This document shows, piece by piece, positions 16,117-62,913 of a stretch of DNA of 64,000 nucleotides. The DNA lies in IMG/VR virus record IMGVR_UViG_3300042198_000079, positions 80,635 through 144,634 of that record. One strand, given 5' to 3'. Numbering within the stretch: position 1 is the stretch's first letter; every line of letters begins with the position of its first letter. The notes beneath the pieces are model-generated. The model was not told the origin of the DNA and searched no databases. It saw only the letters and a list, made by a program, of their open reading frames with translations. The translations under genes and the position numbers were made by a program. The DNA comes from a virus.

Positions 16117-16416
16117 GTGGTTATAAAAACATTATGTATTAATACAATTTTATCTCGACCAGATTTTGTTAAAGAAATATGGGATATAAACTGTTCTGAA
16201 ATAGACAAAGAATATATCATACTTTTAGAACGATATTTAAATAAAAACAATACCTTTAATATAAAATATATTTTATCCACTCCTGAAATTTTAGAAAATA
16301 AAAAAATATTAAATTGGGCAAAAAAGAAAAAATATCCAGTATTAGATCATGAACTTCCCAAAGTAATAGATACTAGCGAATTAGATAAAGAAATTATAAA
16401 GTGTTTATCTTTTTAA
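16117..16416 (+). CDS. Hypothetical protein
   Basis: 99-aa ORF with GTG start filling the intergenic space. Confidence 0.55.
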   Translation: MVIKTLCINTILSRPDFVKEIWDINCSEIDKEYIILLERYLNKNNTFNIKYILSTPEILENKKILNWAKKKKYPVLDHELPKVIDTSELDKEIIKCLSF

Positions 16417-17075
16417 TTATTAATAATTTTGTTTAGAATATTGTTGACACTCTTTCTATTAATCATAAAATCTAATCTATTAGTAGAATTTATCCTATAA
16501 TAAGAGTTTACAATACTATCAAAAATTTCTTTTGAACCTACTGATTGAATTAAATTGTTTATTATATTTTGATCAAAATAATCTAAAATAATATAATCAT
16601 TATCTTCTTTGTTTATTTCTTTTCTTATTATTTCCCCTGTCGAATTTTCTTTTTTTGATAATTCGTAAAATTTTTTCCATATCTTAAAAGAATTTTCATT
16701 TATATAAGTATCACATCTCAACCATCCTTCGTCTTTATAAATTTTATATATTGTTTCCATTAAAAGATAATAAAAAAATGGACCATTTCCTTTTTTAGGC
16801 ACAAAAACATTATCTATCATAAATTTTGATTCAGATGGAGTCCAATCGGAAACACTACATTTAATCCATGCTTTTTCTAGATTATTTTTTATTTTAGCAT
16901 CAGAATCAGAAATATCGTTTTTTATTATTATGCTTTTTATATTATTTTTAATTTTATCTTTAGTTTCAGATTTATATATTAATTCTATTTTTAATTTTTT
17001 ATAATCTACTTCATTTTTTTTATCATTCATATCTTTCATTGCCATTTCTAACAAATATTTTTTAAAATTTATCAT
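16413..17075 (-). CDS. CTS-leader protein with GNAT-like domain
   Basis: Starts MINFKKYLLE; VPKKGNGPFFY...LRCD...SFKIWKKF resembles GNAT motifs A and B; TATAAATA at 17084-17091. Confidence 0.55.
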   Translation of the reverse strand: MINFKKYLLEMAMKDMNDKKNEVDYKKLKIELIYKSETKDKIKNNIKSIIIKNDISDSDAKIKNNLEKAWIKCSVSDWTPSESKFMIDNVFVPKKGNGPFFYYLLMETIYKIYKDEGWLRCDTYINENSFKIWKKFYELSKKENSTGEIIRKEINKEDNDYIILDYFDQNIINNLIQSVGSKEIFDSIVNSYYRINSTNRLDFMINRKSVNNILNKIINN

Positions 17076-17130
17076 AATAATTTTATTTATAGAATTTAAA
17101 ACAAATATCAGTTCTTGTGGATTTTTAATG

Positions 17131-17159
17131 TTGACATCGTTGTTCCGTTCGACTATCTC
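17131..17159 (+). promoter_or_regulatory. Sigma70-type promoter TTGACA-N17-TATCTC
   Basis: 7 nt before ATG 17167 of dda. Confidence 0.55.
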
Positions 17160-17166
17160 TAATAAG

Positions 17167-18516
17167 ATGCAATTTGAATTAACGGCAGATCAAGAAAAAG
17201 CACTAATCGAAATAAACAAATGGTATAATTCGCCTCCTTCTAAAAAGGCACTTCTTTATGGACAAGCCGGAGTAGGTAAAACATCTGTTGTTGCAACCTT
17301 TATAAAAAACTTAATAAAAACCAAAGACAAAACTAAAGTAAAAATTTGCGTTGTTGCTCCTACCCATAAAGCACTAAAGGTTATTAAAAACATGTGCGAA
17401 AAAAATGAAATAATAGAAGATTTACACTTTAATACAATTCATAGTCTTTTGGGATTAAGACAAGTAATTGACGGTTATGGAAATCAATCATTCAAAAGGG
17501 AAAATGGAAGTTCTGGTAAAGATAAATCGTCCGAATATAATTTGATTATTTGTGACGAGGCATCCATGATTGGATCAGAACTTTTATCATATATAAAAAA
17601 CGATATAAAAATTTTATTTGTCGGGGACAATTTTCAGCTAAACCCTGTAAATGAAATTGATTCTCCCGTTTTCAATTTAGATATTCCTAAATTCGGATTA
17701 ACCGAAATTGTTAGACAAGTTAAAGAAAATAAAATAATTGAATTTTCTAAATCCATTAGAGAAAAAGGAGGCATTAGCGATATTAGAAGTTATTTAGGAA
17801 CAAATGATTTAATTCTAATGCCAATGAAAAGATTTCAAGCAGGTATTCCAGATGTTTTTAATTCTGAAAATTATAAGAAAAATATCGATTATGGAAGAAT
17901 TTTGTGCTATACTAATAAAGAAGTATCAAAATGGAATCAATACATAAGAAATAAAATATTTCCAAATTCCAATCGACAAATTGATGTCGGCGAAAGAATA
18001 ATTTTTAGAAAACCGGCACTAAACATAAATTTTAATTCTTCTAAAAAGAAAAGCACTTTGCAAAATCGTTTTTCATTTGATACAAACGACGAAGTAACAA
18101 TTATAGACGTAGAAGAAAAAATATTTAAATTCAAAAATTTTAGTTTAGATACTTATGTTTGTGAAGGATTAGACGAAAATACAGGCAAATCTGGAAAATT
18201 CAGAATTCTTAATAATAATTCAACAGACGAATATAATGATATTTTATCTAATTTAAAAAGACAAGCTCTTTCTAAAAAACAAGGAACCAAAGAAGCGAAA
18301 AATGCATGGGTTTGTTATTATGAATTTTCTGATCTTTTTGCAGTAATTCAGGGTGCATATGCGTGTACAGTACATGTTTCGCAAGGATCAACTTTTGAAA
18401 ACTGTTTTGTTATTCTTTCCGATTTTGATAATTGTAGAGTAAATTTAGAAAAAATTAGATTGTTTTACACTGCTGTAACTAGAGCAAGTGAAAAGGTTGT
18501 AATGATCACTGCCTAA
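17167..18516 (+). CDS. dda: Dda-like SF1B DNA helicase
   Basis: GQAGVGKT, APTHKA, CDEASM, GDNFQL, TVHVSQGS, YTAVTRA; start moved to ATG 17167 from the promoter position. Confidence 0.92.
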   Translation: MQFELTADQEKALIEINKWYNSPPSKKALLYGQAGVGKTSVVATFIKNLIKTKDKTKVKICVVAPTHKALKVIKNMCEKNEIIEDLHFNTIHSLLGLRQVIDGYGNQSFKRENGSSGKDKSSEYNLIICDEASMIGSELLSYIKNDIKILFVGDNFQLNPVNEIDSPVFNLDIPKFGLTEIVRQVKENKIIEFSKSIREKGGISDIRSYLGTNDLILMPMKRFQAGIPDVFNSENYKKNIDYGRILCYTNKEVSKWNQYIRNKIFPNSNRQIDVGERIIFRKPALNINFNSSKKKSTLQNRFSFDTNDEVTIIDVEEKIFKFKNFSLDTYVCEGLDENTGKSGKFRILNNNSTDEYNDILSNLKRQALSKKQGTKEAKNAWVCYYEFSDLFAVIQGAYACTVHVSQGSTFENCFVILSDFDNCRVNLEKIRLFYTAVTRASEKVVMITA

Positions 18517-25213: not shown

Positions 25214-25996
25214 ATGTTGTCATTTAAAGAATTTCTAGTAGAGAATTTTATGGAAGAAGAATTGCCTACTTTAATAAGTGCAATAAAAAATCTTACTAGT
25301 AAAAATAGTTCTACTAAAGAAAAATTGTTAAAAGATCTTCAAGATATATACGGTTTTAAATTTGAAAATTTCGGATCAGGTGTGAGTTCTGTTGTTTATG
25401 CAGGAACAAAAAGCACAATTCCACAATATATAATGAAGATATTTGAAAGTTCTGAGGATACAGCATCACAAGAATATCTTGAATATTGTAAGAGTAATCA
25501 AAGTTCTAATCCGTTTCTTCCGTTTCTTCCATCCCCAGAAAAACAACCTTTGATTTTAAATAAATTGCAGAAAATTTATATAATGGAATATGTAACGGTA
25601 GATCCGTGGAAAGGTAATAATCATTTAAGTATTTTTTTTGGTAAAGAAAAGTTTTCTAATTTTATAGACCAAGTTTCAAATATTTTGGGCGGTGATGTTA
25701 TGGATTGGTTTGTTCCATCTGAAGTTATAATTTTTGATCACTGTATAAATGATCTTCTTATTGAAGATCAAAGCAAGTTTGAAAAAATTCTGGAGGAATT
25801 ATTCGATGATAAGTTTTATGACTTTATGAACTGGATTGGAGTCTATGAACATATCATAAATTCAAATCCTAGAGCATCATTAGACTTTGGATATGGAAAT
25901 TATGGCTTTAGACCAAGTGATGGTCATATGGTCATATTTGATCCACTAACCACCATGACCGAAGACGAGAACCCGCTAACCTCCACAACCGAGTGA
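25214..25996 (+). CDS. CTS-leader protein with protein-kinase-like fold
   Basis: Starts MLSFKEFLVE; G-loop FGSGVSSVVY, IMKIF, IMEY, catalytic loop DFGYGN, VIFDP; GATAAATA upstream. Confidence 0.7.
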   Translation: MLSFKEFLVENFMEEELPTLISAIKNLTSKNSSTKEKLLKDLQDIYGFKFENFGSGVSSVVYAGTKSTIPQYIMKIFESSEDTASQEYLEYCKSNQSSNPFLPFLPSPEKQPLILNKLQKIYIMEYVTVDPWKGNNHLSIFFGKEKFSNFIDQVSNILGGDVMDWFVPSEVIIFDHCINDLLIEDQSKFEKILEELFDDKFYDFMNWIGVYEHIINSNPRASLDFGYGNYGFRPSDGHMVIFDPLTTMTEDENPLTSTTE

Positions 25997-29723: not shown

Positions 29724-30221
29724 ATGTTAGAAAAATTTAATAATTATATCAATGAATTTCTTTTAGAAAAAAAAGATAGATGTCACAGAAAAGCCGAACA
29801 AGTTTATGGTAAAAAAACTTCTGCATATAGAAGCGGAGCAATAGTAAAATGCAGACAAGGCAAAATCTGGAAAAAGAAAAAAATTAAAGAAAATACAATA
29901 AAAGAAGAGACGCTTGAAGAACCAACACAACTTAATGAAAAAAACACTTTCTCGAAAGAAAAAGAAAGTGGTTTACATGGTTGGTTTTCTCGTCAAGGAG
30001 GAAAAGGAAAAAGTAAAGGCTGGGTAGATTGTAATACCTGTCGTAAAGATAAAAAAACAGGAAAGAAAACCTGCAAAACCTGTGGAAGAGGCAAAGGCGA
30101 AAAAAGAAGCAAATATCCTGCCTGTCGTCCAACACCTTCAGCGTGTAATTCCAGAAAAAGATTAAAAAAAGGATCTAAAAGAATTTCTTGGAAAAAAGGA
30201 AGTAGAACGAAATCCAAATAA
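29724..30221 (+). CDS. Basic Cys-rich CTS-leader protein
   Basis: TATAAATA 29710-29717; MLEKFNNYINEFLLE; SAYRSGAIVKCR, GWVDC, YPACRP. Confidence 0.7.
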   Translation: MLEKFNNYINEFLLEKKDRCHRKAEQVYGKKTSAYRSGAIVKCRQGKIWKKKKIKENTIKEETLEEPTQLNEKNTFSKEKESGLHGWFSRQGGKGKSKGWVDCNTCRKDKKTGKKTCKTCGRGKGEKRSKYPACRPTPSACNSRKRLKKGSKRISWKKGSRTKSK

Positions 30222-31050: not shown

Positions 31051-31109
31051 AAAGATACTTATATTAATTTACTGGTTTAGTAATTAATTTCGTTTCGAGT
31101 TTCTTTATA
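31051..31109. repeat. 59-bp imperfect direct repeat, copy A
   Basis: 53/59 identical to 31871-31929 (offset 820). Confidence 0.9.
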
Positions 31110-31136: not shown

Positions 31137-32792
31137 TTAAAATGTTTGTATAGCAGGACGAAATCTTGCTCTTTTTTCATCTATCACATCAAAATAAATT
31201 CTACCATATATTTCAAACGGATAACCAACAAAATCCATTATATTTCCTAAAATTGGAAGTTTAGAACTAGTAAAATCCCAAATATCATAATATGAAATAT
31301 ATTCTCCTTCGTCGTCTTTACCATAACTTATTGTATAACTTCCCATAAATGTAGATTCTAGTCTATGACTAGGAAAACCACATAAATCTGATATTTGACT
31401 GGAAGTTGCTGGTTTTCTTATTTTTTTAGCAACATCTACAAGTATTTTAGTATTTTCTTCTGACATAATATAAAATTCTGCCAAATTATATTCTTTTTTC
31501 TCTGGTAAAATATCATAGTATATTGAATTTTTATTTTTACTTATTTTTGGGAGATGATTTGGATTTGTTATTTTAAAAAAACTTCTTTCTAACACTTCTT
31601 TATCTCCAGTAAGAAAATAATACCATGCATCATAATCTACTTTAAAATCATCTTCTAAATAATCATCATTTTCAATGTCATCGAAATATTTATCTTTTGT
31701 CACACGTAGAATAAGATTTATAAATTCGTTTATACTTTTAGGAAATTCATTTCTTGGATCGATGTTTCTAAATATTCTGTCTGCCAATGATTTAGGCAAC
31801 AACCCCTCATTTAATAAATTATCACAATATTTATTAAATGAATGTAATACAAACTTTTCTTTATTCATATAAAGATATTTATATTGATTTACTGGTTTAG
31901 TAATTAATTTCAATTCAAGTTTCTCTATATTAATTTTAATTTTTGGAACATAATCTTTTGGAAGTTTGTTTTCTATACCTAAAAATTCTGTATTTTCGTC
32001 CACTATAAAAGTTAAAACAAGATCTGTTAAATTTAACATAATTTGCGAAGAGGTCCAGACTTTGTAGTTTGTTCTATATGGTTCTAAATAACCGGGAATT
32101 CCGTCATGATGTTTTCTGAGACTAGCAAGCAATTCTTCTGGAGTTTCTGATTTTCTTGCTTCTTTTGTTGCCAATCTATATCTAGACATAGACGATTTTC
32201 TATCTTTTCCTGTTTGATATCCTTGATCTGGATATTGAATACCGTGATTAGTTCTAACTATAATTTCATCTTTTCCAAACTTTTTAATTGACGGTTTTCC
32301 AAATTTCAATTTTTCAATTGAAACAAAATAATCTTTACAACCAACTGTTGTATGTCCTCCTATACCTCTTTGGTAAAGATCTAAACATTTTATAACTTTT
32401 TCGATATTACTATAACCAAGTGCTTTTCTTATTTTAAATCCATCTTTTGATATTTTTGTTTTTTTATTTCTATGTTTTTTATCCATAGATACTCCTTCGT
32501 TTTCGTCTTTTTTTCCTTGTAGAGTAGTATTAACTATTCCTATACCAAATTCGTTCATTCCTTCCGAATAATCAGTTTCTTCATCGTGCATATATACTGT
32601 TTCTATCCCATTTATAATTTCTCTAACTATAGATATTCTCGGAATATATGTTCTATCTCTGTTTTTTGCTAAAATTACTTTTCCCGCAACCGAAGTTCCG
32701 ACTGATGTGCATTCGTTTAATATTTTAAAATTATGATTATTTAAAGTTTCCAATAAAAACTTATTATATTTATGTAAAAATAAAAAATTCAT
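31137..32792 (-). CDS. Fusion of a CTS-leader Ntn (C45/AAT-like) cysteine hydrolase with a second CTS-leader gene (internal ATG 31868)
   Basis: ILNE|CTSVG...LAKNRDR, EGMNEFGI, RTNHG; internal TATAAATA at 31876-31883 followed by MNKEKFVLHSFNKYCDNLLNE. Confidence 0.75.
   Translation of the reverse strand: MNFLFLHKYNKFLLETLNNHNFKILNECTSVGTSVAGKVILAKNRDRTYIPRISIVREIINGIETVYMHDEETDYSEGMNEFGIGIVNTTLQGKKDENEGVSMDKKHRNKKTKISKDGFKIRKALGYSNIEKVIKCLDLYQRGIGGHTTVGCKDYFVSIEKLKFGKPSIKKFGKDEIIVRTNHGIQYPDQGYQTGKDRKSSMSRYRLATKEARKSETPEELLASLRKHHDGIPGYLEPYRTNYKVWTSSQIMLNLTDLVLTFIVDENTEFLGIENKLPKDYVPKIKINIEKLELKLITKPVNQYKYLYMNKEKFVLHSFNKYCDNLLNEGLLPKSLADRIFRNIDPRNEFPKSINEFINLILRVTKDKYFDDIENDDYLEDDFKVDYDAWYYFLTGDKEVLERSFFKITNPNHLPKISKNKNSIYYDILPEKKEYNLAEFYIMSEENTKILVDVAKKIRKPATSSQISDLCGFPSHRLESTFMGSYTISYGKDDEGEYISYYDIWDFTSSKLPILGNIMDFVGYPFEIYGRIYFDVIDEKRARFRPAIQTF
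31871..31929. repeat. 59-bp imperfect direct repeat, copy B
   Basis: Matches 31051-31109; has CAA where copy A has a TAA stop. Confidence 0.9.
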
Positions 32793-32927: not shown

Positions 32928-34409
32928 TTAATTTTCGTTCGCTTTGTTTTCTTCTTCTAATTCTATAATTCTTCTTATTATATATAGAGGATTTTTAAAA
33001 GTGTCTACGATATAGACACTTTTATAATATTCTAATATTTTCATATAATTATCTAAAGCTTTTTTATTTTTAATATGCCCGAGACTTCCTAATTCTTTAA
33101 AAACTCCTCTACCATATATTATCATATATGCATATGTATTATATTTCTCATAGTCATCCGTATCTTTTAGTTTGCCTTCTTCGTCTAAATTTAAAATATC
33201 GCAAACTTTATTAAAATCGTCTTTCATGTCGTTCCAAGATTCTATATATTCTTTTTTCTTTTTTTCTTCTTCGGCTTTATAATATTCTCTTTTTCTTATT
33301 CGTTGTTCTTCTTCTCTTTTTTCTTTTGAAAAAGTTTCTCCAGTATTAATATTTTCCTCTCCCCTTTCATACCAAATTCTTTTAAATTTATTTTTAAAGT
33401 CTGATAATTTTTCATCGTGATATAAAGTAACATCTATATCACCTCTTTCCGATTTTATTCTTATCTCCATTCCGTGCCTAGTGAATTTTTTAAACATTTT
33501 ATGTTTTTTTTGTCCCATTTTTAAGTTTGCCATTCTGTATGGCAAACTCGCATCATAAATGTCAATTTTTATTTCTCTACCCTTTACAGTCCAAAATATT
33601 TTATTATTATCACTATTTTTAATTTTGTCCTCGTTCATTTCTTTTGCTAAGAATGCTACAATTTTTCTTTTTAGCCTAAAAAGAAATTCTCCTCTTATTT
33701 CGTTTGAACCATTTCCCGTTACAAATGTTTCTATTATTTCAAAAGAAAAAGGAGTTAACCATAATATTTGTTCCGGTTCAGCATGATATATTGATGCTTG
33801 ATTTAATGTTTTTGCTTTGTCTTCCAAACAATCTATCCTCATAGATTTTAAAATTTTAGATTGATCAAATTGATTTCTAACAGTTGGTTCTACGAAATTA
33901 TAATTTCTTCTACTATTTGTTCGCGTATTTGAAAAATCCATTTGAACTGCCGTCATGAATAATTTTCCGGGCGAGGTTACTCCTTTAGCTTTATTTGGAT
34001 AAATTTTTTTTGCTCTAAAATATGAATCTTCGAAATCTATATCTTCAAAATTTGCTCTTTTTAACAAGTCTATAGCAAACCATTCCTCCATATCACTTAA
34101 TATTACTTTATGTTTAGATGTGTCTTTTATAACTTTTAAAAATTTACTGTTAGCTCCGTAAAAAATATCACCCGGATGATCTATTACATATTTCAAAGGA
34201 TATGCATATGTCCCTACGGGATCGTTGTGGGTAGGATCTTTACTAAAACCTTTGGATAAAACATCTGTACTATTTCCATTATCAAATCTAACATATAAAG
34301 TCGGGTCATTTTTTTTAGATTTATATTTTTTATAAAATTCGTTAAATCCTTTTGAAAAAACGTCAGAAAAATGCACTTCGCATAAAATATAATTTTTAAA
34401 ACTTCTCAT
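32928..34409 (-). CDS. CTS-leader protein, possible ART-like N-terminal domain
   Basis: TATAAATA 34419-34426; MRSFKNYILCE; PVGTYAYP and IDCLED...IYHAEPEQILWL. Confidence 0.6.
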   Translation of the reverse strand: MRSFKNYILCEVHFSDVFSKGFNEFYKKYKSKKNDPTLYVRFDNGNSTDVLSKGFSKDPTHNDPVGTYAYPLKYVIDHPGDIFYGANSKFLKVIKDTSKHKVILSDMEEWFAIDLLKRANFEDIDFEDSYFRAKKIYPNKAKGVTSPGKLFMTAVQMDFSNTRTNSRRNYNFVEPTVRNQFDQSKILKSMRIDCLEDKAKTLNQASIYHAEPEQILWLTPFSFEIIETFVTGNGSNEIRGEFLFRLKRKIVAFLAKEMNEDKIKNSDNNKIFWTVKGREIKIDIYDASLPYRMANLKMGQKKHKMFKKFTRHGMEIRIKSERGDIDVTLYHDEKLSDFKNKFKRIWYERGEENINTGETFSKEKREEEQRIRKREYYKAEEEKKKKEYIESWNDMKDDFNKVCDILNLDEEGKLKDTDDYEKYNTYAYMIIYGRGVFKELGSLGHIKNKKALDNYMKILEYYKSVYIVDTFKNPLYIIRRIIELEEENKANEN

Positions 34410-34461: not shown

Positions 34462-34929
34462 ATGACATCGACAATTTTAGAAAAATATACAAATTATATA
34501 AATTCTATTTTTGAATCCGAATCTAAAAAACAGGCAGTATTTATAATAATACCGATTAGTGAGAACACATTAGCAGCAACAACAAGACCAAACGAAGAAA
34601 ACAAAATAGGACTTCCCGGAGGGAAGGTAGATCCCGGAGAAGAATTGATAGATGCTGTTGTTAGAGAATCTACAGAAGAAGGATGGAAAATAGACCGGAA
34701 GTTAGTTTCCGAAACCCCTATACGCGATATATTAATAAATAATACACACGTTTATTGGTTTAGATATACAGGAACAGCAGAAGAATTATCAGAATATAAA
34801 GAAAAACATAGAGGTATACTCCCCATAGTAGTAACAGTTGAAGAAATTTCAAATTCTGGTTTTGGTAATGAATTTATTAGAAATTGGTGGAAGGAAAACG
34901 TAAAATTATTAAACGAAAAAAATAAATAA
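34462..34929 (+). CDS. NUDIX hydrolase with CTS-like leader
   Basis: Nudix box GGKVDPGEELIDAVVRESTEEG; N-terminus ...KYTNYINSIFE. Confidence 0.88.
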   Translation: MTSTILEKYTNYINSIFESESKKQAVFIIIPISENTLAATTRPNEENKIGLPGGKVDPGEELIDAVVRESTEEGWKIDRKLVSETPIRDILINNTHVYWFRYTGTAEELSEYKEKHRGILPIVVTVEEISNSGFGNEFIRNWWKENVKLLNEKNK

Positions 34930-40750: not shown

Positions 40751-40790
40751 AATCAATGAATCAAATGTCATATTTTCATATTGGAGTTAA
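40056..40790 (+). CDS. ADP-ribosyltransferase of polyvalent-protein type (in frame with the upstream ORF, past a single TAA)
   Basis: DAAYLAAVEAGDMKTAQRMV, VFRG, FWTTS..LAKDY, GYDGV, QVKSADPVTYD..GNIIPLSKRFN. Confidence 0.7.
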   Translation: MKTAQRMVNDAAENKQTVFRGQKGFQSKYPKSTKGFFGVGQKIVPTFWTTSESLAKDYSRDGEYKGSTTPSAEAQKGIAAWEYENVWTRSDGSQYTTTDTTTDKGIAEKAKEQGRRVKETRVFPQTATVQSAKLFFKKPLVLDANGAIWREVNFKGRKMSTDQIVEYAFKNGYDGVEIKNVRDSFAGLRFEDTSNVLVSFYPEQVKSADPVTYDESGNIIPLSKRFNPDSESINESNVIFSYWS

Positions 40791-42236
40791 TTCTTGGGTA
40801 TTCTCGTCATAAAAAGATACAATTCTTAATATTTTTCTTTTTTCTCTTTCTGCGATTTTTTGCATTTTTTCTATTTCTGTTTCGTAATATTTTTCAGGAT
40901 CTTTTTTATATTTTGAAATTACTTCATCTGAAAATATTTTATTTAATTCTTCACTAATATCATCTTCTGCTGTGGGGTTAAGCACATGTTTAGATCCTAT
41001 ACTAAATAATTCGCTTGGGGGGAGGATTTCATAAAACGTGTCTTCTAAGCGTTGTTTAAAAATATTAAGAATTTTGTCTAAAAATGATTTTATCACTAGA
41101 ATATCAGTTTCATTTTTCAATTTATTTATCAAATCTTTTCTAAATTTTACACACTCCTCAAAAAGTGGTATTAAATCTGTAAGGTTACTTCTTCTTAAGA
41201 AATGGATAACCACATCGGGTTTTTCATTTTCCAATACATTTAATATAGTATGAGCGATTTTGGTATTATTGTGAAATTTTTGTAATACAAAATCAGTAAT
41301 CTCAGTAATTTCTAAAAATTTAATAATTTTGTCTTTTTCTTCTTTTTCTTTCAACCCATTTATAAAATTATTATATGAAAACTTATGTATTTCGTCTAAT
41401 TTTTTATATAATTCGTTATTTTTTATTGCATTTATCAAATCGTTTTTTGTTTCAAATTTTCTTCTTTTATTACCATGTGAAAAAAGACTAGAATATATCT
41501 GTGTAGGATAATTAGGTATTTCTATTTTATCTATAAAATATTTATTATGATAAAATTTATAAATATTTTTGATATTATAAACTGGAAGTATTGCCTTCCT
41601 GAAATCCGAATTTGTAAAATATTCTACCATCTCCCCAAATCCCGTTCCTGTTTTATTTCGTTTTCTCCTTGTAAATATATGACCAAGTTCATGAGACACA
41701 GCACTGACACATTCAGAATTTAATTCGTCTAATCCCTCTATAATTTTATTTTTTGTATTAGGAATTGTTAGCGGATCGATATCTAGAATTGCGCCTTTAT
41801 TTAACAAATATTTTATTGTTATTTGTATTGTATCTTGATCTTCATAAATAATATATTTGCCTTTTTTGTGTTTTGCAATTGGAACTTGTGTAGATGCACC
41901 TCTCATGACAATTTTTTTATCTTTATGTAAATTTCCCAACGAATCAAAATTTTCTATAAAATCAATTGTTATTCGGTATGTTAATTTATTAAATATTTTA
42001 TCTCCTATTACAAATTCATCGCCAGCATTACATACATATTGACCATCTATTATAGATGAAGTCCGGTCATTATTATAGAACTTATTAAAATCCATGATTA
42101 CTGATCTATTATTTCGGTTTAAATCCTCTATAATTTTATCATATATTATTGTGTATATTCTTTCTGATACTTCGTGTATTTTTGGAAAAATCCCTCTGGC
42201 TTCTGATAAAAGCAAATATTCTTTAAATGTTTTCAT
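40776..42236 (-). CDS. CTS-leader protein with zincin HExxH motif
   Basis: MKTFKEYLLLSEARG; VSHELGH with a downstream E (KIEIP); TATAAATA 42244-42251. Confidence 0.7.
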   Translation of the reverse strand: MKTFKEYLLLSEARGIFPKIHEVSERIYTIIYDKIIEDLNRNNRSVIMDFNKFYNNDRTSSIIDGQYVCNAGDEFVIGDKIFNKLTYRITIDFIENFDSLGNLHKDKKIVMRGASTQVPIAKHKKGKYIIYEDQDTIQITIKYLLNKGAILDIDPLTIPNTKNKIIEGLDELNSECVSAVSHELGHIFTRRKRNKTGTGFGEMVEYFTNSDFRKAILPVYNIKNIYKFYHNKYFIDKIEIPNYPTQIYSSLFSHGNKRRKFETKNDLINAIKNNELYKKLDEIHKFSYNNFINGLKEKEEKDKIIKFLEITEITDFVLQKFHNNTKIAHTILNVLENEKPDVVIHFLRRSNLTDLIPLFEECVKFRKDLINKLKNETDILVIKSFLDKILNIFKQRLEDTFYEILPPSELFSIGSKHVLNPTAEDDISEELNKIFSDEVISKYKKDPEKYYETEIEKMQKIAEREKRKILRIVSFYDENTQELTPI

Positions 42237-43323: not shown

Positions 43324-44388
43324 GTGTTGACTTTTAAAAAATATCTCTTAAATGAACGAATTGGAGCTATAGAGGACAGGGATGATGATGGGGAGTATAA
43401 AGAATTTAGAACCATTATAAACGAAATATGGGGATTGATCCTAGATTGGTCAAAAGGAGTTTTTCCTTATGATGAGTTAAAAGTTAAAGATAAAGGAATT
43501 TCAACAAAGTTAATAAAATTAACTTTAGATTTAACCAAGGTAAAATCGCTTGGGGTGTTTTACCCCAAATTGTTTAGAGATAAATCTGTAAAAGATGATC
43601 TTAATGTTGAAACGGTGTTGATTCATTCTTTTGGAAAGTTAGACATTTTCGAACAACTTTTTAATGCCTTATCAATAACTCACGATAAGAAGGTTGTTGA
43701 ATTAATTGATGAGTTATTGACCCTTTACATGGGAAGCGTCAGAACTAGTGGAAATATATCTTTTGATGATGAAACGGGAGAATACACTATAAAATGCTTA
43801 CTCGTTACTAAAGAAATATCATTAGATAATAACAACTTCAATCCTTCTCTATACGACTTTATAAAAAGCAATGAGAACTTTGAATACATTTTTAGAGAAG
43901 AGTGCAGACATTTTTTACAAAATCTCTTAATAAGCAAGACTTCTCTATCTAAAAATTTTGATAAGTTAGAAGATTATTTAATAGATCCTTATGAAATTGG
44001 TGCTAAAATAGAAGAAGGGTTGTTGAAGTTGGATAAAATTTTAGCCATTGATAAATTTTATAGAATGTTTCTAGATATGTTACCATACTTCGATAAGTAT
44101 GAATTTTTTTCTAAAGTGGTATCCTCTATACTTACAGATTTTTGGACTAAGACAACTGAGGATGTTAGGCATATACATAATTATATACATAGAAAAAATC
44201 CAACAAAAGTTGACGAAATAGAGCATTTAGTTTATATTGAAGTTATAGAACCTTTTCTTTTTACAAGTCTTCTACCACATATAAAAGAATACGTTGATAA
44301 ATTTAGAGAAGAAGAATTGGGGAAGGACTGGGATAATATAGAAAATAATATTTCTTGGGAATTTTTTAAAAAGATTAAAGAATTATGA
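43324..44388 (+). CDS. CTS-leader protein with degenerate zincin-like motif
   Basis: Tandem TATAAATA 43305-43318; MLTFKKYLLNE; EECRHFLQ...YLIDPYEIGA. Confidence 0.65.
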   Translation: MLTFKKYLLNERIGAIEDRDDDGEYKEFRTIINEIWGLILDWSKGVFPYDELKVKDKGISTKLIKLTLDLTKVKSLGVFYPKLFRDKSVKDDLNVETVLIHSFGKLDIFEQLFNALSITHDKKVVELIDELLTLYMGSVRTSGNISFDDETGEYTIKCLLVTKEISLDNNNFNPSLYDFIKSNENFEYIFREECRHFLQNLLISKTSLSKNFDKLEDYLIDPYEIGAKIEEGLLKLDKILAIDKFYRMFLDMLPYFDKYEFFSKVVSSILTDFWTKTTEDVRHIHNYIHRKNPTKVDEIEHLVYIEVIEPFLFTSLLPHIKEYVDKFREEELGKDWDNIENNISWEFFKKIKEL

Positions 44389-44534: not shown

Positions 44535-44940
44535 ATGTTGTCATTTAAGTGTTATTTTATAGAATCTACCACTTCTGATATTAGACCAGCAACCTCAGAC
44601 GATTATGACCTAGTTTCTAAATTAGAAAAGGAAAATTATCCAGACGATCCTTGGATTGGAAGTCTTGAAGAGTTTGAAAATGTTCTGTTAAGTTTCTATT
44701 GGAGGACCACATGCAAAGGAAATGTTACAATTCTTTTTAAGAATCCCTAGTAAAGTAAATCGCTATTATACTCATTCTTTTGACAAAAATACTGGCAAGA
44801 CCGACTGGTTTGAAAAAATAGAATTTTTAAAAGATAATGGATTTGTAGATATTGGACCGGGCGACCAATCCAAAGAATCGGTTCCGTGGGCATATGATCT
44901 TAGTAAAATGCGCGAATTAGAATATATAACAATAGACTAA
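44535..44940 (+). pseudogene. Split CTS-leader RimI-like GNAT acetyltransferase
   Basis: MLSFKCYFIE then IRPATSDDYDLVSKLEKENYPDDPW (GNAT beta1/alpha1); overlapping ORF 44722-44940 has IEFLKDNGFVDIG (GNAT C-terminal motif). Confidence 0.55.
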
Positions 44941-48059: not shown

Positions 48060-48123
48060 AATAATACTTATTATTTGAAGAATTTTATTTGACATGTTTG
48101 CTGTTTTGTAGTAATTATTTTTA

Positions 48124-50041: not shown

Positions 50042-52291
50042 TTATAATTCGTTCATATTAGTTTCTTCCTCATTCTGACCACCAATTTTCATATTTTTAT
50101 ACGAATCCCAACTTGGTCTATAATTTATTCCAAATATACTCTTTTTCTTTTTCGGAACTATTTTATTCATTTTTCCAAATTTTAAAACTCCGTTTTGGAA
50201 ATATATGAGATTTCTTTTTGATTGTATATTAAAATAATCTCCTATTGCTCTTTCCATTGCTTCTACTGTTACCGGAGGACCGTCATATCCATAAAGATCT
50301 TTTGCCGTTCCATATTTTATCCTACTATTAAAATTACGAGTAAGATCTTCGATTATTGCTTTTCTACGATAAACCTTTTTGCCAGTTTTTCTGTCTATAT
50401 ATGAAAATTCACTACTTCCAAAGTCTTTATACGTATAAACTTTTTTAATAAATTCTATTGCAGCATATCTAAGATTTAAAATATCCCAATTACTATAAGT
50501 GGTTTGTTTTGTATTTTGTGGTAATATTGGCGGGGTTGGTTTCTTATCGTTTGGTTCATTTTGTGTATTTTTTAAATCTTGTATTTCTTTTCTCAAATTG
50601 TCTACAATTCCTTGCATATACTCTAATGATTTATTTAAATCTTTGATAACTAAATCACCAGTATCATCAAATTTTTCTATTTGACGTATTAATACTTCCA
50701 TATTTTTGTTTGCTTCCCCATTTGTTTCTCTTTCAACTTCTTTTATTTCTATTGCTTCTATAGGGCCTACGTCATTTGTATCGATGTTAATCTGATTTTG
50801 ATTATCTCTTAATTTTTTAAGTTTCTCTCTTAATCTTTTAAGTTTATTTTTTAAATTTTTAATTGTATCTTTCAAATCCATATTTGCTTTATATGTATCA
50901 TTATTATCATCTAAAATAGTTCCTAATGTATCTTGTAATTTTTTTATTGCTGCATCTCTGTTACTAACATCTATATTTCGTAATCCCTCTAATTCTTCAG
51001 CTTGTTGAGTTAAAAGGTCAGATGCATTTCCTAATGCTGCACTGACAATAGCCTCCATATTACTAATATTGAAACTCCTCAAAAGATTGAATGTTTGAAA
51101 TCTTTCCATTTCTTGAGCGCGTGATAAGCTTGCTATTTTTTTAAAAAAGCTGTTTGCTATATTTGATCTAGATGGAAAACTTTTTCCTAAAAAGGTTTGT
51201 CTGTCTAAAATTTCAATCATATATACTTTAGAAAATGATTCATATATATCGTATAATTCGTCGGTCGTAAGATATCCAACATCTTTTAAATCTCGTCTGA
51301 GTGCTACTTCTTCGCCCCATCCTTGCATTCCATCAGGACCATCGTATTCACTTTCTAAAGTTTTTGGAGTTCCTTCTCTACTTTCCAAATCAGTTATAAA
51401 TGCATCTCTATCTGCTTTTTTCCAACCTTCATGTGTTCCTGCTGGAGGAATTTCGGCACGAACTGTATTTTCTCTAGTGTATTGAATTGCATTTAAATAA
51501 GGATACTTATTTTCTGGAGTTCTCATTACGGATATTTTATATGCAAAAATATACTTTCCTTTGCTGTTATCTTTTTTATTTACAACTTTTCTTTTCGACG
51601 CTAATCGCATATCTATTCTGTGATATCTTATTCCGGGGAAAACAGCAACACTATCGATTGCTTCTACAAGTTCTTTAGTTAAAAACGTGTTCTTTACTTG
51701 ATTTATATTAAAGGGAACTTGTAAATCTCTTCCTTCGACCCATCTATTATCCCAATTAGGATCTCCGTCGCGTCTAAGATTGTCATAATCTTCTTTGCTA
51801 ATTTCTAATGCAAACATATTTTTTGGTTTTTTTGTTACATTTATTATTCCTCTTATTGAGTCACTTCTACGGTACAAATTTACCGGCCCATACGTTATGT
51901 TATCTATAAGAGGTTTTATATTATTATCATAATATAAATCAAATTGGTCTTTAGATACTTTTAAAAGATTATTTTGTAATAATAAAGTGCTATGATATTT
52001 ATTAACTGTTCTAACATCTTGGTTCAAAACACTTATATCTTCATTTAATATTTTTTTAAAAACCGAACCATCTGCTAATGAAGATGATATATTATTTAAT
52101 TTTCGTAATATATTATCAGAATGTATCCTAATTTCGTTATTTCTTGATATAAATGCACCACGCATTTCCCTACGGTCTTCTCTAAATTCCGCATCATTAT
52201 AATCATCATCATAATCATCACCATCTTCATAATTTCCCGTATTTTCTAATACGATTTTATTATAATAATTTTCAAACTTGGTAAAAAACAT
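50042..52291 (-). CDS. Large coiled-coil CTS-leader protein
   Basis: TATAAATA 52297-52304; MFFTKFENYYNKIVLE; heptad-rich segments. Confidence 0.7.
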   Translation of the reverse strand: MFFTKFENYYNKIVLENTGNYEDGDDYDDDYNDAEFREDRREMRGAFISRNNEIRIHSDNILRKLNNISSSLADGSVFKKILNEDISVLNQDVRTVNKYHSTLLLQNNLLKVSKDQFDLYYDNNIKPLIDNITYGPVNLYRRSDSIRGIINVTKKPKNMFALEISKEDYDNLRRDGDPNWDNRWVEGRDLQVPFNINQVKNTFLTKELVEAIDSVAVFPGIRYHRIDMRLASKRKVVNKKDNSKGKYIFAYKISVMRTPENKYPYLNAIQYTRENTVRAEIPPAGTHEGWKKADRDAFITDLESREGTPKTLESEYDGPDGMQGWGEEVALRRDLKDVGYLTTDELYDIYESFSKVYMIEILDRQTFLGKSFPSRSNIANSFFKKIASLSRAQEMERFQTFNLLRSFNISNMEAIVSAALGNASDLLTQQAEELEGLRNIDVSNRDAAIKKLQDTLGTILDDNNDTYKANMDLKDTIKNLKNKLKRLREKLKKLRDNQNQINIDTNDVGPIEAIEIKEVERETNGEANKNMEVLIRQIEKFDDTGDLVIKDLNKSLEYMQGIVDNLRKEIQDLKNTQNEPNDKKPTPPILPQNTKQTTYSNWDILNLRYAAIEFIKKVYTYKDFGSSEFSYIDRKTGKKVYRRKAIIEDLTRNFNSRIKYGTAKDLYGYDGPPVTVEAMERAIGDYFNIQSKRNLIYFQNGVLKFGKMNKIVPKKKKSIFGINYRPSWDSYKNMKIGGQNEEETNMNEL

Positions 52292-60937: not shown

Positions 60938-60964
60938 ATTAATATATTTATGGCATTTGTAATT

Positions 60965-61321
60965 TCATTGCCAATTGTTTTTTTGATCTTTCATGGTTTT
61001 AATATTTCCTTCGTCTCTTGATTTTGCTTTAGAACCTTTTTTTCTTCTTTTTTTGTTTTTACCATATAGTAATGATGCAGGTATTCCTCTTTTTAATAAA
61101 ACAGCATCTCGTTTTCTTTTTGTATTTCTTTGCGAATCATTTACAAAAAAGTCTCCATTTTTTGCATTGCTGTCTTTGTCGTCTGTTGCTCTTCTCGGCA
61201 ATAATTCTTTTCTAGTATAATTATGCGATTTATATTTTCCTCTTTTAGATGCCTTTCTCGGAATTAATCTTTCCAAAATAAAGTCCTTGACAAATTCATC
61301 GAATTTAGGTAACATATACAC
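60965..61321 (-). CDS. Highly basic CTS-leader protein
   Basis: TATAAATA 61327-61334; MLPKFDEFVKDFILE; K/R-rich body. Confidence 0.65.
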   Translation of the reverse strand: MYMLPKFDEFVKDFILERLIPRKASKRGKYKSHNYTRKELLPRRATDDKDSNAKNGDFFVNDSQRNTKRKRDAVLLKRGIPASLLYGKNKKRRKKGSKAKSRDEGNIKTMKDQKNNWQ

Positions 61322-61333
61322 ATATATATTTAT

Positions 61334-62329
61334 ATGTTAAAGATTAACAATAGATTTATTCTTTCTAAATTAGATTCGTTGGGAATAAATAAAACCTCCT
61401 CTGGAGGAAATTGGAAATTTTCTTGTCCTATTTGCAGAGAAGGCAAATCTTTCGGGAAAAAGAAAAGATGTTTTTTCTTAAAAGATGGATATTTCGTGTG
61501 TTTTAATTGTAGTAAAGCATGGAGTCCATATAATTTTTTTAATGAAATTTTGCAAATTTCATTAAAAGATTTCATATCAGAACACAATGAATATATAAAT
61601 GAAAACAAATCAGAAGACTTGTTTTTACAAAGGAAATATATTTCTCTTGAAGAAGAAAATGACGAAGAAGAATCGAATATTTTACCTTTTGGGTCTATTC
61701 ATTTAGAAGACAAAACACAAGTAGATTTTTATAAAAACGATTACAATATAAACAGTGCATTAGAATATTGCAAAAGAAGAAGATTGTTCGATGCAATAAA
61801 TAAAGTTCCTATTTATTTTACAAGTAAAGATTACATACATAAAAACAGAATCATACTACCATATTATAAAAACGGGAAAATTGTTCATTATCAATCTCGT
61901 TTAATAAAATCGTCTTCCTTTATTCCTAAATATTTGTCAAAACCGAATTCTAAAAAATGTTTCTTTAATGAAGACAATATTGATTGGGAATATCCTTATA
62001 TTTTCATTTTTGAAGGTCCGATTGACAGCATGTTTGTAAAAAACGGAATAGCAATGGGAGGATTAACATGTAATTCTGAACAAAAAGACATATTAGATTT
62101 TTATAAAATAACAAAAGAAATTATCTATGTATTGGATAATCAAATAGATAACAAAGAAGTAGTTACTCGTTATTTGAAGTTAGAGGAACAAGGAGAAAAA
62201 GTGTTTCTTTGGAACGATATTAAGGAAAAAGATATTAATGAATGGGTAGTGAAAAACCACAAAAATTTATTCGACTCAGAAAGAATTGTTAAAAATTCAG
62301 GAAGTCCTTTAATTTTATTAAATAGATAA
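61334..62329 (+). CDS. gp61: DNA primase gp61
   Basis: Zinc finger CPIC...CFNC, RIILP, EGPIDSMF, LDN, KDINE. Confidence 0.93.
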   Translation: MLKINNRFILSKLDSLGINKTSSGGNWKFSCPICREGKSFGKKKRCFFLKDGYFVCFNCSKAWSPYNFFNEILQISLKDFISEHNEYINENKSEDLFLQRKYISLEEENDEEESNILPFGSIHLEDKTQVDFYKNDYNINSALEYCKRRRLFDAINKVPIYFTSKDYIHKNRIILPYYKNGKIVHYQSRLIKSSSFIPKYLSKPNSKKCFFNEDNIDWEYPYIFIFEGPIDSMFVKNGIAMGGLTCNSEQKDILDFYKITKEIIYVLDNQIDNKEVVTRYLKLEEQGEKVFLWNDIKEKDINEWVVKNHKNLFDSERIVKNSGSPLILLNR

Positions 62330-62382
62330 TATGAAAAAATTTAATATATAAGAATAGTCAATTACTCCGTTTATCATTATAT

Positions 62383-62913
62383 TCAATACTCATTATATTC
62401 CATCACCTCTATTTCTAAAGTTTGGTGTATTTGCGATATTGTATCTAAAAAGTCTTGAAAATTTACTCCTCCTTCGATCCTAATCCTATTTTCTTTTTCT
62501 TTTCCTTCTAATGCTATGATAAAATTAAACAAATTAGAATCAAGTTGATCTTTTACTTTTATGTTTACTTCCAAAGGGTTTTCTCCGCGAAATTGTTCTA
62601 ACGCTTCATTTATATTTTCGTAATGTTTAATTACTTTTTGATCTAGTATGTTTTGTTCTTCTGCTGTATTTTTTTTATTGAAATTATAGATTAGTTCGAT
62701 CTTAGGAATTAAAAATATTATTTCTCCTTTTGAATTTTTACGTTTTTCAAATTTCAATGTGCCTATTTTAATATTTATCGAATCACTAATTTCTGATTTA
62801 AACTCTTTAAACATATCTATATATTCCTTCGGTGAATACTCATCTGGATTGTATGAATAATTCTTAGCAGTATTGTCGATGATTTCTGTTATAAATTCGT
62901 TAAACTTTTTCAT
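62383..62913 (-). CDS. Hypothetical protein with CTS-like start
   Basis: MKKFNEFITE. Confidence 0.65.
   Translation of the reverse strand: MKKFNEFITEIIDNTAKNYSYNPDEYSPKEYIDMFKEFKSEISDSINIKIGTLKFEKRKNSKGEIIFLIPKIELIYNFNKKNTAEEQNILDQKVIKHYENINEALEQFRGENPLEVNIKVKDQLDSNLFNFIIALEGKEKENRIRIEGGVNFQDFLDTISQIHQTLEIEVMEYNEY

What the first reader, a model, noticed from the sequence alone, without database searches (positions are those of the whole stretch)
16413..62913. Candidate system: modular arsenal of capsid-targeted effector enzymes sharing a late-promoter plus CTS-leader cassette
Seen in sequence: unrelated ORFs share an N-terminal leader. They are MINFKKYLLE (17075), MLSFKEFLVE (25214), MLEKFNNYINEFLLE (29724), SFNKYCDNLLNE (31868), KYNKFLLE (32792), MRSFKNYILCE (34409), KYTNYINSIFE (34462), MKSFRQYLNSFLTE (39192), MKTFKEYLLLSE (42236), MLTFKKYLLNE (43324), MLSFKCYFIE (44535), MLSFKKFI..ILE (44971), MFFTKFENYYNKIVLE (52291), MLPKFDEFVKDFILE (61315) and MKKFNEFITE (62913). 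Most have TATAAATA or a 1-nt variant 5-9 nt upstream, and the leaders at 25214 and 44535 share 14 identical nt (ATGTTGTCATTTAA). The recognisable replication and metabolism genes lack this leader. Established: T4 internal proteins carry a capsid-targeting sequence (IPII/IPIII MKTYQEFIAE, IPI MKTFKEF), are cut by gp21 after [IL]-x-E and are injected; IPI* blocks GmrSD and Alt is a packaged ART. Inference: this phage has generalised that route into a plug-in platform that delivers a kinase, ART-like, GNAT, zincin, NUDIX and Ntn-hydrolase cargoes at injection, for host takeover or counter-defence.
Basis: partly seen in the sequence, partly recalled or inferred. Interest (0 to 1): 0.9.

Follow-up and report, generated by a model that had tools for sequence, protein, structure and literature searches.

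The report
Expanded capsid-targeting leaders, T4-like phage
An uncultured, distant relative of phage T4 puts T4's short "load me into the head, then cut me off" peptide on about 22 mostly unrelated late genes. That is several times more than T4 or its own relatives, so it probably injects an unusually large, fast-changing protein kit with its DNA, though nothing has been measured.

Summary
Observation confirmed. All 15 N-terminal leaders are at the stated coordinates. A leader pattern ([FY]-polar-x-[YF], then [LIVFM]-x-E) fits 18 of 159 ORFs on the 145-kb contig, against about 2.5 expected.

The contig is a deep-branching T4-like phage with a gp21-family prohead protease, gp23 capsid protein and gp55 late sigma factor. 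The conserved leader positions (aromatic 4 and 7, L/I 8, E 10) are the ones shown in T4 to drive capsid targeting and gp21 cleavage. The same pattern finds 1-6 plausible leader genes in T4 and six other T4-like genomes.

New support:
- The Ntn-hydrolase cargo has over 100 phage homologues. All 115 scorable ones have Glu, and 108 have L/I at P3, directly before the catalytic Cys, as in a protease-armed zymogen.
- A near-identical relative keeps promoter and leader but carries different GC-rich cargo. DNA homology breaks 19 codons into the gene.
- That cargo derives from giant polyvalent proteins.

Limits: packaging, cleavage and injection are all inferred. NUDIX and Ntn-hydrolase cargoes are confirmed. 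The ART lies behind an in-frame stop, the kinase call is weak, and GNAT and zincin are unsupported.

This is a new variant of a known kind. This scan has noted similar leader expansions on other uncultured T4-like phage DNA.

The parts
   Evidence: phrog_234 'late sigma transcription factor', E 2.3e-19
16413..17075 (-). Leader gene, 220 aa, MINFKKYLLE; cargo unknown
   Evidence: TATAAATA ends 8 nt before the ATG. No Pfam or PHROG hit.
25214..25996 (+). Leader gene, 260 aa, MLSFKEFLVE; weakly kinase-like cargo
   Evidence: phrog_15752 (T7 0.7-type kinase), E 4e-6, partial. G-loop-like GSGVSSVVY, IMK and DFG motifs read from the sequence. The single-sequence AF2 model is unusable, pLDDT 42.
29724..30221 (+). 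Leader gene, 165 aa, long leader MLEKFNNYINEFLLE; basic (pI 10.2), like the classical internal proteins
31887..32792 (-). Cys-Ntn hydrolase with a 27-aa propeptide: leader KYNKFLLE, then ILNE directly before Cys28
   Evidence: AF2 model pLDDT 83.5, pTM 0.85. Foldseek hits to isopenicillin-N acyltransferase, NAAA, bile salt hydrolases and penicillin V acylase, E 1e-8 to 1e-5. 115/115 homologues have E at P1 and 108/115 L/I at P3 before the Cys. A 100%-identical stand-alone 302-aa form exists elsewhere (P0128).
31137..31868 (-). Inserted 820-bp cassette with its own TATAAATA, ATG and leader (..SFNKYCDNLLNE) and a 243-aa cargo. It is read in frame with the hydrolase because the old stop is now CAA.
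31051..31109 (.). Downstream copy of a 59-nt direct repeat (hydrolase 3' end plus late promoter). Its partner is at 31871-31929, 90% identical, spacing 820 nt. The pair flanks the inserted cassette.
   Evidence: the repeat finder family D1
32928..34409 (-). Leader gene, 493 aa, MRSFKNYILCE; cargo unknown
34462..34929 (+). NUDIX hydrolase, 155 aa, with an offset leader (..EKYTNYINSIFE)
   Evidence: Pfam NUDIX 33.2 bits, cutoff 21.1. RE-x2-EE box present. A homologue in IMG/VR genome G001 carries the leader MITFKKYF..LQE.
39192..39986 (+). AT-rich promoter plus leader (MKSFRQYLNSFLTE) fused at nt ~39249 to a GC-rich fragment of a polyvalent protein
   Evidence: GC 0.17-0.29 rises to 0.45-0.6. 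Junction sequence shown. Residues 30-260 match residues 4929-5164 of a 6293-aa protein, E 5.5e-39.
40056..40790 (+). ART-PolyVal-like ORF, in the same frame as 39192-39986 but behind a TAA at 39984-39986
   Evidence: PF18760, 26.3 bits (cutoff 31.2), E 1.5e-5. Translation and stop.
40776..42236 (-). Leader gene, 486 aa, MKTFKEYLLLSE (first six residues identical to T4 IPI); cargo unknown
   Evidence: Only 61% identical to its orthologue in relative L287, whose flanks are 96-99.6% identical. ESM Atlas look-alikes are all unnamed viral clusters.
43324..44388 (+). Leader gene, 354 aa, (GTG)LTFKKYLLNE. With the adjacent methyltransferase (42530-43303) it is absent from relative L287.
44535..44940 (+). 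Leader gene MLSFKCYFIE, split here into 71-aa and 72-aa ORFs; a single 167-aa ORF in relative L287
44971..47532 (+). Leader gene, 853 aa, MLSFKKFI..RILE. Shares a ~260-aa N-terminal domain with the 703-aa leader protein at genome 1965-4076.
   Evidence: 82% identical to its L287 orthologue.
50042..52291 (-). Leader gene, 749 aa, long leader MFFTKFENYYNKIVLE
60965..61315 (-). Leader gene, 116 aa, MLPKFDEFVKDFILE; basic (pI 10.6)
62383..62913 (-). Leader gene, 176 aa, MKKFNEFITE; no good late-promoter match

Best explanation
The window belongs to an uncultured, deep-branching T4-like myophage. About 22 of its 159 ORFs, 14 of them in the window, start with a 10-16-residue propeptide of the T4 capsid-targeting-sequence (CTS) type. 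The short form is M-x-x-F-K-x-[YF]-[LI]-x-E and the long form is M-L-x-K-F-N-x-Y-x3-[FM]-L-x-E.

Proposed mechanism:
1. gp55-dependent late promoters drive the genes while proheads assemble (promoter motif and gp55 gene shown; timing inferred).
2. The aromatic residues at positions 4 and 7 dock the protein into the scaffolding core (inferred from T4 genetics).
3. The gp21-family protease cuts after [LI]-x-E, freeing the mature cargo inside the head (inferred; supported by comparative data).
4. The cargo leaves with the DNA at infection (inferred).

For the Cys-Ntn hydrolase, that cut would expose the catalytic N-terminal Cys, so the enzyme would be armed only inside the capsid.

The leader also acts as a recombination-tolerant adaptor. 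Cargo behind it is exchanged, inserted, deleted or captured from foreign GC-rich polyvalent-protein genes, which gives a fast-evolving set of delivered proteins. What most cargoes do is unknown.
For: Shown by tools:
- The leader is real and about 7x over chance.
- S77/gp21 protease at 54 bits (cutoff 27), gp23 at 255 bits, gp55.
- T4 IPII/IPIII begin MKTYQEFIAE and IPI begins MKTFKEF.
- The conserved leader positions equal the T4 positions mapped for targeting (4, 7) and processing (8, 10) (PMC9026906).
- The capsid protein's propeptide has L-N-E|A where T4 gp23 has L-T-E|A, and [LI]xE is kept across the clade. Scaffold homologues keep L-[TS]-E near the N-terminus.
- The same regex recovers T4's three internal proteins. 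Plausible leader genes are 1-6 per genome in T4 (4/266 ORFs) and six other T4-like genomes. The raw hits (1-10 per genome, 0.8-3.1% of ORFs) sit near those genomes' chance expectation. Here the figure is 18/159 (11.3%).
- Ntn-hydrolase family: E at P1 in 115/115 and L/I at P3 in 108/115 directly before the nucleophile Cys, while propeptide length varies from 4 to 63 aa. The fold is confirmed.
- Relative L287: flanks are 96-99.6% identical and the leader is retained, but DNA homology ends at w39248 and resumes at w40677 with different cargo. There is also a ~2-kb indel holding a methyltransferase and a leader gene. Cargo identity is 61% and 82%.
- The cargo at 39192 matches internal pieces of 1,325-6,293-aa proteins. 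An ART-PolyVal domain follows it.
- A 59-nt repeat of gene end plus promoter flanks an inserted leader-cargo cassette.
- Promoter-plus-leader pattern in IMG/VR: at least 120 contigs; 113/121 matches open an ORF of 60 aa or more; 43 cargo families, including Acb1, HAD, PAP2, RimK, poly(A) polymerase and Zeta-toxin-like.
- Late structural genes with the same promoter spacing lack the leader.
Against: - There is no proteomic or biochemical evidence. Packaging, cleavage and ejection are all inferred from T4.
- Several leaders deviate. V or F replaces L/I at P3 (w50042, w44535). No [LI]xE occurs within 40 aa in G38044. Two window leaders lack a convincing late promoter (w44535, w62913).
- Many cargoes are large (500-900 aa) and acidic, unlike T4's small basic internal proteins. 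T4 does package CTS fusions to beta-galactosidase (PMC9026906).
- The comparator set is seven genomes and my gene caller is crude.
- The contig is only 67% complete.
- The ART ORF is not physically joined to a leader in this sequence.
Confidence: 0.72

Rival explanations
1. The leader does load proteins into the prohead and is removed by the protease. However, the proteins are mainly head-internal structural or DNA-condensing components, or scaffold accessories, rather than effectors that act in the next host.
For: - One leader-like protein is the gp22-type scaffold.
- Several are small and basic like T4 IPII/IPIII: pI 10-10.6 for w29724, w60965 and G33647.
- Most cargoes have no recognisable enzymatic domain.
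Against: - Enzyme cargoes are present: NUDIX, Cys-Ntn hydrolase, polyvalent-protein modules, possibly a kinase.
- Between near-identical genomes the cargoes show extreme turnover and 61-82% identity against 96-99.6% flanks. That pattern fits conflict genes better than structural ones.
- The Ntn-hydrolase family excepted, cargo genes lack homologues in clade relatives.
Confidence: 0.14
2. The shared N-terminus is a translation-initiation feature (A/U-rich early codons, a 'downstream box') needed by late mRNAs that have almost no 5' UTR. It is not a protein-sorting signal.
For: - Late promoters end only 5-11 nt before the ATG, leaving no room for a Shine-Dalgarno site.
- The leader codons are AT-rich.
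Against: - 21 other ORFs, including structural genes, have the same exact promoter and spacing but unrelated N-termini.
- Conservation is at the amino-acid level, with varying Leu and Ser codons.
- Leader length varies while the terminal [LI]xE is kept. E is invariant before the Ntn Cys in 115/115 homologues from genomes of differing GC content.
- T4's own CTS genes have ordinary ribosome-binding sites (AAAGGAAA upstream).
Confidence: 0.04

Closest known systems
T4 internal proteins IPI, IPII and IPIII with the capsid targeting sequence (Mullaney & Black 1996; reviews PMC9026906, PMC3012670)
   Same: - N-terminal 10-19-aa propeptide with aromatic residues at 4 and 7, L/I at 8 and E at 10.
- A gp21-family protease is present.
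- Late genes.
- Mature parts are unrelated to one another.
- Some members are small and basic.
   Different: - About 22 genes instead of 3, dispersed over the genome rather than at two loci.
- Many cargoes are 350-900 aa, some acidic, some enzymes.
- The promoter abuts the ATG.
- No sequence similarity to the mature internal proteins.
- The lineage's capsid protein is only about 30% identical to that of any cultured phage.
T4 Alt, a packaged and gp21-processed ADP-ribosyltransferase
   Same: A large enzyme loaded into the head, trimmed by the prohead protease and injected. It is the precedent for enzymatic cargo.
   Different: - No homologue of Alt was detected by BLAST against T4 ORFs.
- The ART here is of the polyvalent-protein (Tox-ART-HYD2-like) type, which Iyer et al. 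2017 say is distinct from Alt/VIP2.
- It is currently separated from the leader by a stop codon.
Polyvalent proteins and MuF- or portal-fused effectors (Iyer et al. 2017, PMC5512222; 2022, PMC9503650)
   Same: - The cargo at 39192-40790 is homologous to internal modules of giant multi-domain proteins and carries their repeated linker.
- ART and Nudix domains are predicted there to be head-packaged.
   Different: - Here the delivery adaptor is a 14-aa T4-type CTS, not a MuF, portal or giant-polyprotein context.
- Only one or two modules are present.
- This combination was not found in the papers searched.
Ejection proteins of giant phages (SPN3US, phiKZ) processed by their prohead protease (PMC5694885, PMC7411985)
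   Same: Dozens of head-internal proteins matured by a gp21-related protease and ejected.
   Different: Per the general literature, those phages use propeptides with a different cleavage motif and no simple shared N-terminal tag. Here membership can be read from a short N-terminal motif.
Modular shuffling at the T-even internal-protein locus and PeSL cassettes (Repoila 1994; Arbiol 2010, PMC2839356; Comeau 2014, PMC4122927)
   Same: Conserved regulatory or 5' sequences flank variable genes and mediate replacement, insertion and deletion between close relatives.
   Different: - The repeated unit here is gene end plus late promoter (59 nt) and the leader itself, not an early promoter with stem-loop.
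- One exchange imported foreign GC-rich DNA.

Membership tests
T4-type CTS-bearing head-internal proteins | N-terminal propeptide with targeting residues at positions 4 and 7 and processing residues at 8 and 10 ([LI]-x-E) | tested here: met
   with the mapping from PMC9026906. Five ORFs fit the strict register and 18 the relaxed regex. A few leaders deviate at P3.
T4-type CTS-bearing head-internal proteins | The phage encodes a gp21-family (Peptidase_S77) prohead protease with L/I-x-E specificity | tested here: met
   PF03420, 54.3 bits against a cutoff of 27. Specificity is inferred from the conserved L-x-E at the gp23 maturation site and before the Ntn Cys.
T4-type CTS-bearing head-internal proteins | Late (gp55-dependent) expression | tested here: inconclusive
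   The gp55 gene is present. TATAAATA or a one-mismatch variant precedes 18/23 leader genes. No transcript data exist.
T4-type CTS-bearing head-internal proteins | Physically present in virions with the propeptide removed, and ejected with the DNA | not testable with these tools
   The phage is uncultured and known from a metagenomic contig only.
Cys-Ntn hydrolases (AAT / C45 / choloylglycine hydrolase clan) | Alpha-beta-beta-alpha Ntn fold with the nucleophile Cys at the start of the first strand after propeptide removal | tested here: met
   AF2 model pLDDT 83.5, with Cys1 leading strand 2-8. 93 PDB matches at E <= 1e-3; all those listed, bar human Tango2 and an unannotated structural-genomics protein, are Ntn hydrolases. 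Pfam AAT scores 22 bits for this copy (cutoff 23.2), and PF03417 is precomputed on many homologues.
NUDIX hydrolases | Nudix domain with the RE-x2-EE catalytic box | tested here: met
   PF00293, 33.2 bits against a cutoff of 21.1. GKVDPGEELIDAVVRESTEEG contains the box.
Polyvalent proteins (Iyer et al. 2017) | Homology to modules of multi-domain conflict proteins | tested here: met
   Residues 30-260 match residues 4929-5164 of a 6293-aa protein, E 5.5e-39. Three further hits lie within proteins of 1,325-3,658 aa, one of which carries InPase PF18823.
Polyvalent proteins (Iyer et al. 2017) | Two or more disparate domains in a single polypeptide | tested here: not met
   An in-frame TAA at 39984-39986 separates the first module from the ART-PolyVal module. 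ART-PolyVal is below Pfam's cutoff (26.3 against 31.2). The L287 version is one 382-aa ORF.
Protein kinase (T7 gp0.7-like) | Kinase domain match | tested here: inconclusive
   phrog_15752, E 4e-6, over residues 33-107 only. No Pfam or PDB hit. The AF2 model is unusable.
   No Pfam or PHROG match at E <= 0.01 in any leader protein. There is one HExxH, at residue 182 of w40776, with no supporting fold evidence.

The most novel reading that the evidence does not exclude
In T4-like phages at large, the CTS is a general, sequence-readable address label, so a phage's injected proteome could be predicted from its genome. This lineage has pushed the route to about 14% of its genes. It would use the prohead protease as an activating switch (the Ntn-hydrolase zymogen with invariant [LI]xE|Cys). 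It would use the leader as a docking point for capturing foreign conflict modules (polyvalent-protein domains, and elsewhere Acb1-type anti-CBASS enzymes), so that counter-defence enzymes are already present when the DNA enters.
Probability: 0.45. Interest if true: 0.8.

Novelty: new variant of a known kind. Interest (0 to 1): 0.64.

Why it matters
If the leader works as in T4, three things follow.

1. The set of proteins a T4-like phage delivers at time zero could be predicted by a motif scan. That covers candidate anti-defence and host-takeover factors, among them an Acb1 homologue with a canonical leader in another IMG/VR phage, and it could be run across thousands of uncultured genomes.

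2. The Ntn-hydrolase family offers a clean, testable case of an enzyme armed by a viral maturation protease.

3. The near-identical pair (this contig and L287) shows cargo replacement exactly behind the leader, including import of GC-rich polyvalent-protein modules. That gives a concrete picture of how phages acquire and test new injected effectors.

There is also a practical side. The T4 CTS is already used to load foreign proteins into capsids, and natural leaders that carry 700-900-aa cargo would widen that toolbox.

Tried and rejected
- Single-protein scan of IMG/VR with the protease found no relatives. An alignment of capsid proteins was needed instead.
- Sequence searches of PDB with five cargo queries (w40776, w44971, w32928, w25214 and the N-terminal 310 aa of w31137-32792) found nothing significant.
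- tblastn of the GC-rich ORFs against cultured phages found no match.
- ESM Atlas look-alikes for w40776 and the w44971 N-domain were only unnamed viral clusters.
- The single-sequence AF2 model of the kinase-like cargo had pLDDT 42 and was not searched further.
- Complex prediction of the scaffold protein with the first 40 residues of the w40776 protein returned no verdict. It counts neither for nor against binding.
- The 12-position leader HMM (A2) mostly recovers its own training set and missed T4's internal proteins at E <= 0.05. It was therefore not used for the cross-genome comparison, which used the regex on called ORFs.
- ART collinearity with the 6293-aa homologue was not found.
- The radical-SAM rival: no such gene on the contig.
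- Chance, and paralogy of whole proteins, were rejected.

Full report
WHAT THE DNA IS

The window is bases 80,635-144,634 of a 144,634-bp IMG/VR virus record. The record has 29.5% G+C and is estimated 67% complete. It encodes three T4 hallmark genes:
- a Peptidase_S77 (T4 gp21) prohead protease (54.3 bits, cutoff 27);
- a Gp23 major capsid protein (254.7 bits);
- in the window at 14346-14909, a gp55-type late sigma factor (phrog_234, E 2e-19).

The capsid protein is at most 33% identical to that of any cultured phage. It is 45-51% identical to a large metagenomic clade that includes complete 210-250-kb genomes. So this is a deep-branching, uncultured T4-like phage.

THE OBSERVATION

Every one of the 15 quoted N-termini is present at its coordinate. 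On all 159 ORFs of the contig, a relaxed leader regex in the first 26 residues hits 18. Shuffled N-termini give 2.3 +/- 1.5 (maximum 9 of 1000), and the internal frequency predicts 2.7. Reading by eye adds five more, making 23. One of these is the gp22-type scaffold protein.

There are two leader forms:
- a 10-12-residue form, M-x-x-F-K-x-[YF]-[LI]-x-E;
- a 15-16-residue form, M-L-x-K-F-N-x-Y-x3-[FM]-L-x-E.

Codons for Leu and Ser differ between leaders, so the conservation is at the peptide level. The 14-nt identity between 25214 and 44535 is exact and unique in the genome. Apart from two pairs, the cargoes are unrelated by BLAST.

Exact TATAAATA within 30 nt precedes 10/23 leader genes against 21/136 other ORFs. 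The motif ends only 5-11 nt before the ATG. This spacing is shared by late structural genes that lack the leader. The promoter is therefore a general late-gene feature, and only the leader defines this set.

WHY A CAPSID-TARGETING READING IS WELL FOUNDED

Taken from the T4 record itself, IPII and IPIII begin MKTYQEFIAE and IPI begins MKTFKEF.... One protein here begins MKTFKEYLLLSE. A review of Black's work states that only the first 10 residues of IPIII are needed for encapsidation. It adds that targeting depends mainly on residues 4 and 7 and processing on residues 8 and 10 (PMC9026906). Those are exactly the conserved positions here.

The protease specificity appears conserved. The capsid protein's propeptide has L-N-E|A where T4 gp23 has L-T-E|A, and clade members keep [LI]-x-E there. 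The scaffold homologues keep L-[TS]-E near the N-terminus.

EXPANSION

The same ORF caller and regex recover T4's three internal proteins, plus gp61.1 and two likely false hits, for 6 raw hits in 266 ORFs. Raw hits in the other genomes:
- 6/322, 5/168 and 1/128 in three other IMG/VR T4-like genomes;
- 9/385, 10/319 and 8/293 in three complete genomes of this phage's own capsid clade.

By eye, roughly 1-6 of these per genome are plausible leaders. This contig has 18/159 by regex, about 4-8 times the rate elsewhere.

THE LEADER IS WIDESPREAD

Of 121 matches, 113 open an ORF of at least 60 aa. The 104 complete ORFs fall into 43 cargo clusters. Pfam hits on their representatives include Acb1 (anti-CBASS), poly(A) polymerase/CCA-type nucleotidyltransferase, RimK ATP-grasp, PAP2, HAD phosphatase, RNA ligase and Zeta-toxin-like.

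COMPARATIVE EVIDENCE FOR CLEAVAGE

The 551-aa ORF 31137-32792 starts with a leader ending LLE at residue 15. It has a second site, ILNE, at residues 24-27, directly before Cys28. Its N-terminal half has 643 homologues, mostly 280-310 aa, many of them on contigs of 50-320 kb.

In all 115 homologues with a scorable propeptide, the residue before the Cys is Glu. P3 is Leu or Ile in 108. Propeptide length ranges from 4 to 63 residues, and 43 begin with the aromatic CTS-like motif.

An AlphaFold model of residues 28-302 (pLDDT 83.5, pTM 0.85) begins with the Cys at the head of the first strand. It matches isopenicillin-N acyltransferase, NAAA, bile-salt hydrolases and penicillin V acylase at E 1e-8 to 1e-5. 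Cys-Ntn hydrolases need a free N-terminal Cys (established knowledge). An invariant protease site at that bond argues that the prohead protease, not autoproteolysis alone, exposes the nucleophile. That step is inference.

EVIDENCE FOR CASSETTE EXCHANGE

1. A 59-nt direct repeat (90% identical, 820 nt apart) comprises the hydrolase's 3' end plus the late promoter. It flanks a second leader-plus-cargo unit. In the upstream copy the stop reads CAA, which fuses the two genes in frame. A 100%-identical stand-alone 302-aa hydrolase exists in another contig (P0128).

2. At 39192 the AT-rich promoter and leader (MKSFRQYLNSFLTE) join GC-rich DNA at about nt 39249. G+C goes from 0.17-0.29 to 0.45-0.6. 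Residues 30-260 match residues 4929-5164 of a 6293-aa protein (E 5.5e-39) and pieces within three other long proteins (1,325-3,658 aa). After an in-frame TAA, the next ORF has a sub-threshold ART-PolyVal match.

3. A 7-kb contig from another sample (L287) is syntenic with window 38937-48298, and its flanking proteins are 96-99.6% identical. DNA homology stops at 39248 and resumes at 40677. The same leader there heads a different GC-rich 382-aa cargo with the same polyvalent-type linkers. Window 42548-44513 (a methyltransferase plus a leader gene) is absent from L287. The split gene at 44535-44940 is a single 167-aa ORF in L287. The two shared large cargoes are only 61% and 82% identical.

CARGO IDENTITIES

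- NUDIX: confirmed. A homologue in another phage also has a leader.
- Cys-Ntn hydrolase: confirmed.
- ART: likely, but not joined to a leader in this sequence.
- Kinase: weak.
- GNAT and zincin: unsupported.
- The rest are orphans.

RIVALS

- A translation-initiation role fails because equally promoter-proximal late genes lack the leader, and because conservation is at the peptide level.
- A RiPP-like tag finds no radical-SAM partner on the contig.
- A purely structural role for the packaged proteins is not excluded for the small basic members.

RELATION TO WHAT IS KNOWN

Reviews already describe T-even internal proteins as a diverse set sharing only a CTS (PMC3012670). They also describe shuffling at the internal-protein locus (Repoila 1994, cited in PMC4122927). 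Iyer et al. predicted head-packaged ARTs, Nudix and polyvalent proteins delivered through MuF or portal fusions. Four things are new here:
- the scale of the expansion;
- the large and enzymatic cargoes;
- the CTS as adaptor for polyvalent-protein modules;
- the protease-site-before-nucleophile rule in the Ntn family.

Other notes of this scan, which are unpublished and unchecked by me, report similar leader expansions on other uncultured T4-like phages.

VERDICT

The capsid-targeting mechanism is likely (about 0.7). The effector roles are plausible but unproven. This is a new variant of a known kind.

Noticed in passing
L108:8603-9130 (IMG/VR contig); T4 NC_000866 73952-74410: An Acb1 (anti-CBASS phosphodiesterase) homologue in another phage starts with a canonical late promoter plus MKTFKDYLIE leader. 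T4's own Acb1 (gene 57B) starts MMEFKDF and lies next to ipI. Acb1 may be pre-loaded into capsids in some phages.
   Followed up: partly
T4 NC_000866 18966-19130 (gene 61.1): The T4 hypothetical protein gp61.1 (54 aa) begins MKTFKEFIKE, a perfect CTS-type N-terminus, although it lies in the early primase region.
   Followed up: partly
G008 (IMG/VR, 229,717 bp): 8086-8949, 17031-17426, 153363-154241, 168563-169447: A clade relative has a second, different shared N-terminus, M-[ND]-x-D-[SI]-x-L-[IL]-F-E-[AN], on four proteins (three of ~290 aa, one of 131 aa). It also ends in [LI]-x-E and may be an alternative leader type.
   Followed up: no
window, all late genes (e.g. 16413-17075, 39192, 42236) and genome 13817, 19472, 22833: Late promoters end 5-11 nt before the start codon with no Shine-Dalgarno sequence. 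This implies leaderless or near-leaderless late mRNAs throughout this phage.
   Followed up: partly
window 34935-35963 and 35960-36454: A subtilase (Peptidase_S8, E 8e-41) lies directly after the NUDIX cargo gene, and a TnsA-like endonuclease gene converges on it. Neither has a leader.
   Followed up: no
IMG/VR loci L018-L137 (e.g. L100:2581-3207): Half of the promoter-plus-leader hits (50 of 104) are one ~175-209-aa family (consensus MKTFKEYLxESKKxYxFKIKVAG...) with no Pfam match. It is probably a conserved head-internal protein of marine T4-like phages.
   Followed up: no
window 26110-29373: The 1087-aa class Ia RNR alpha subunit aligns to Staphylococcus phage RNRs in two pieces covering 82% of its length. 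This suggests an inserted segment, possibly an intein or extra domain.
   Followed up: no
window 39984-39986: An in-frame TAA separates the leader-bearing polyvalent module from the ART-PolyVal module. It could be a recent nonsense mutation, natural two-gene organisation or a population variant.
   Followed up: partly
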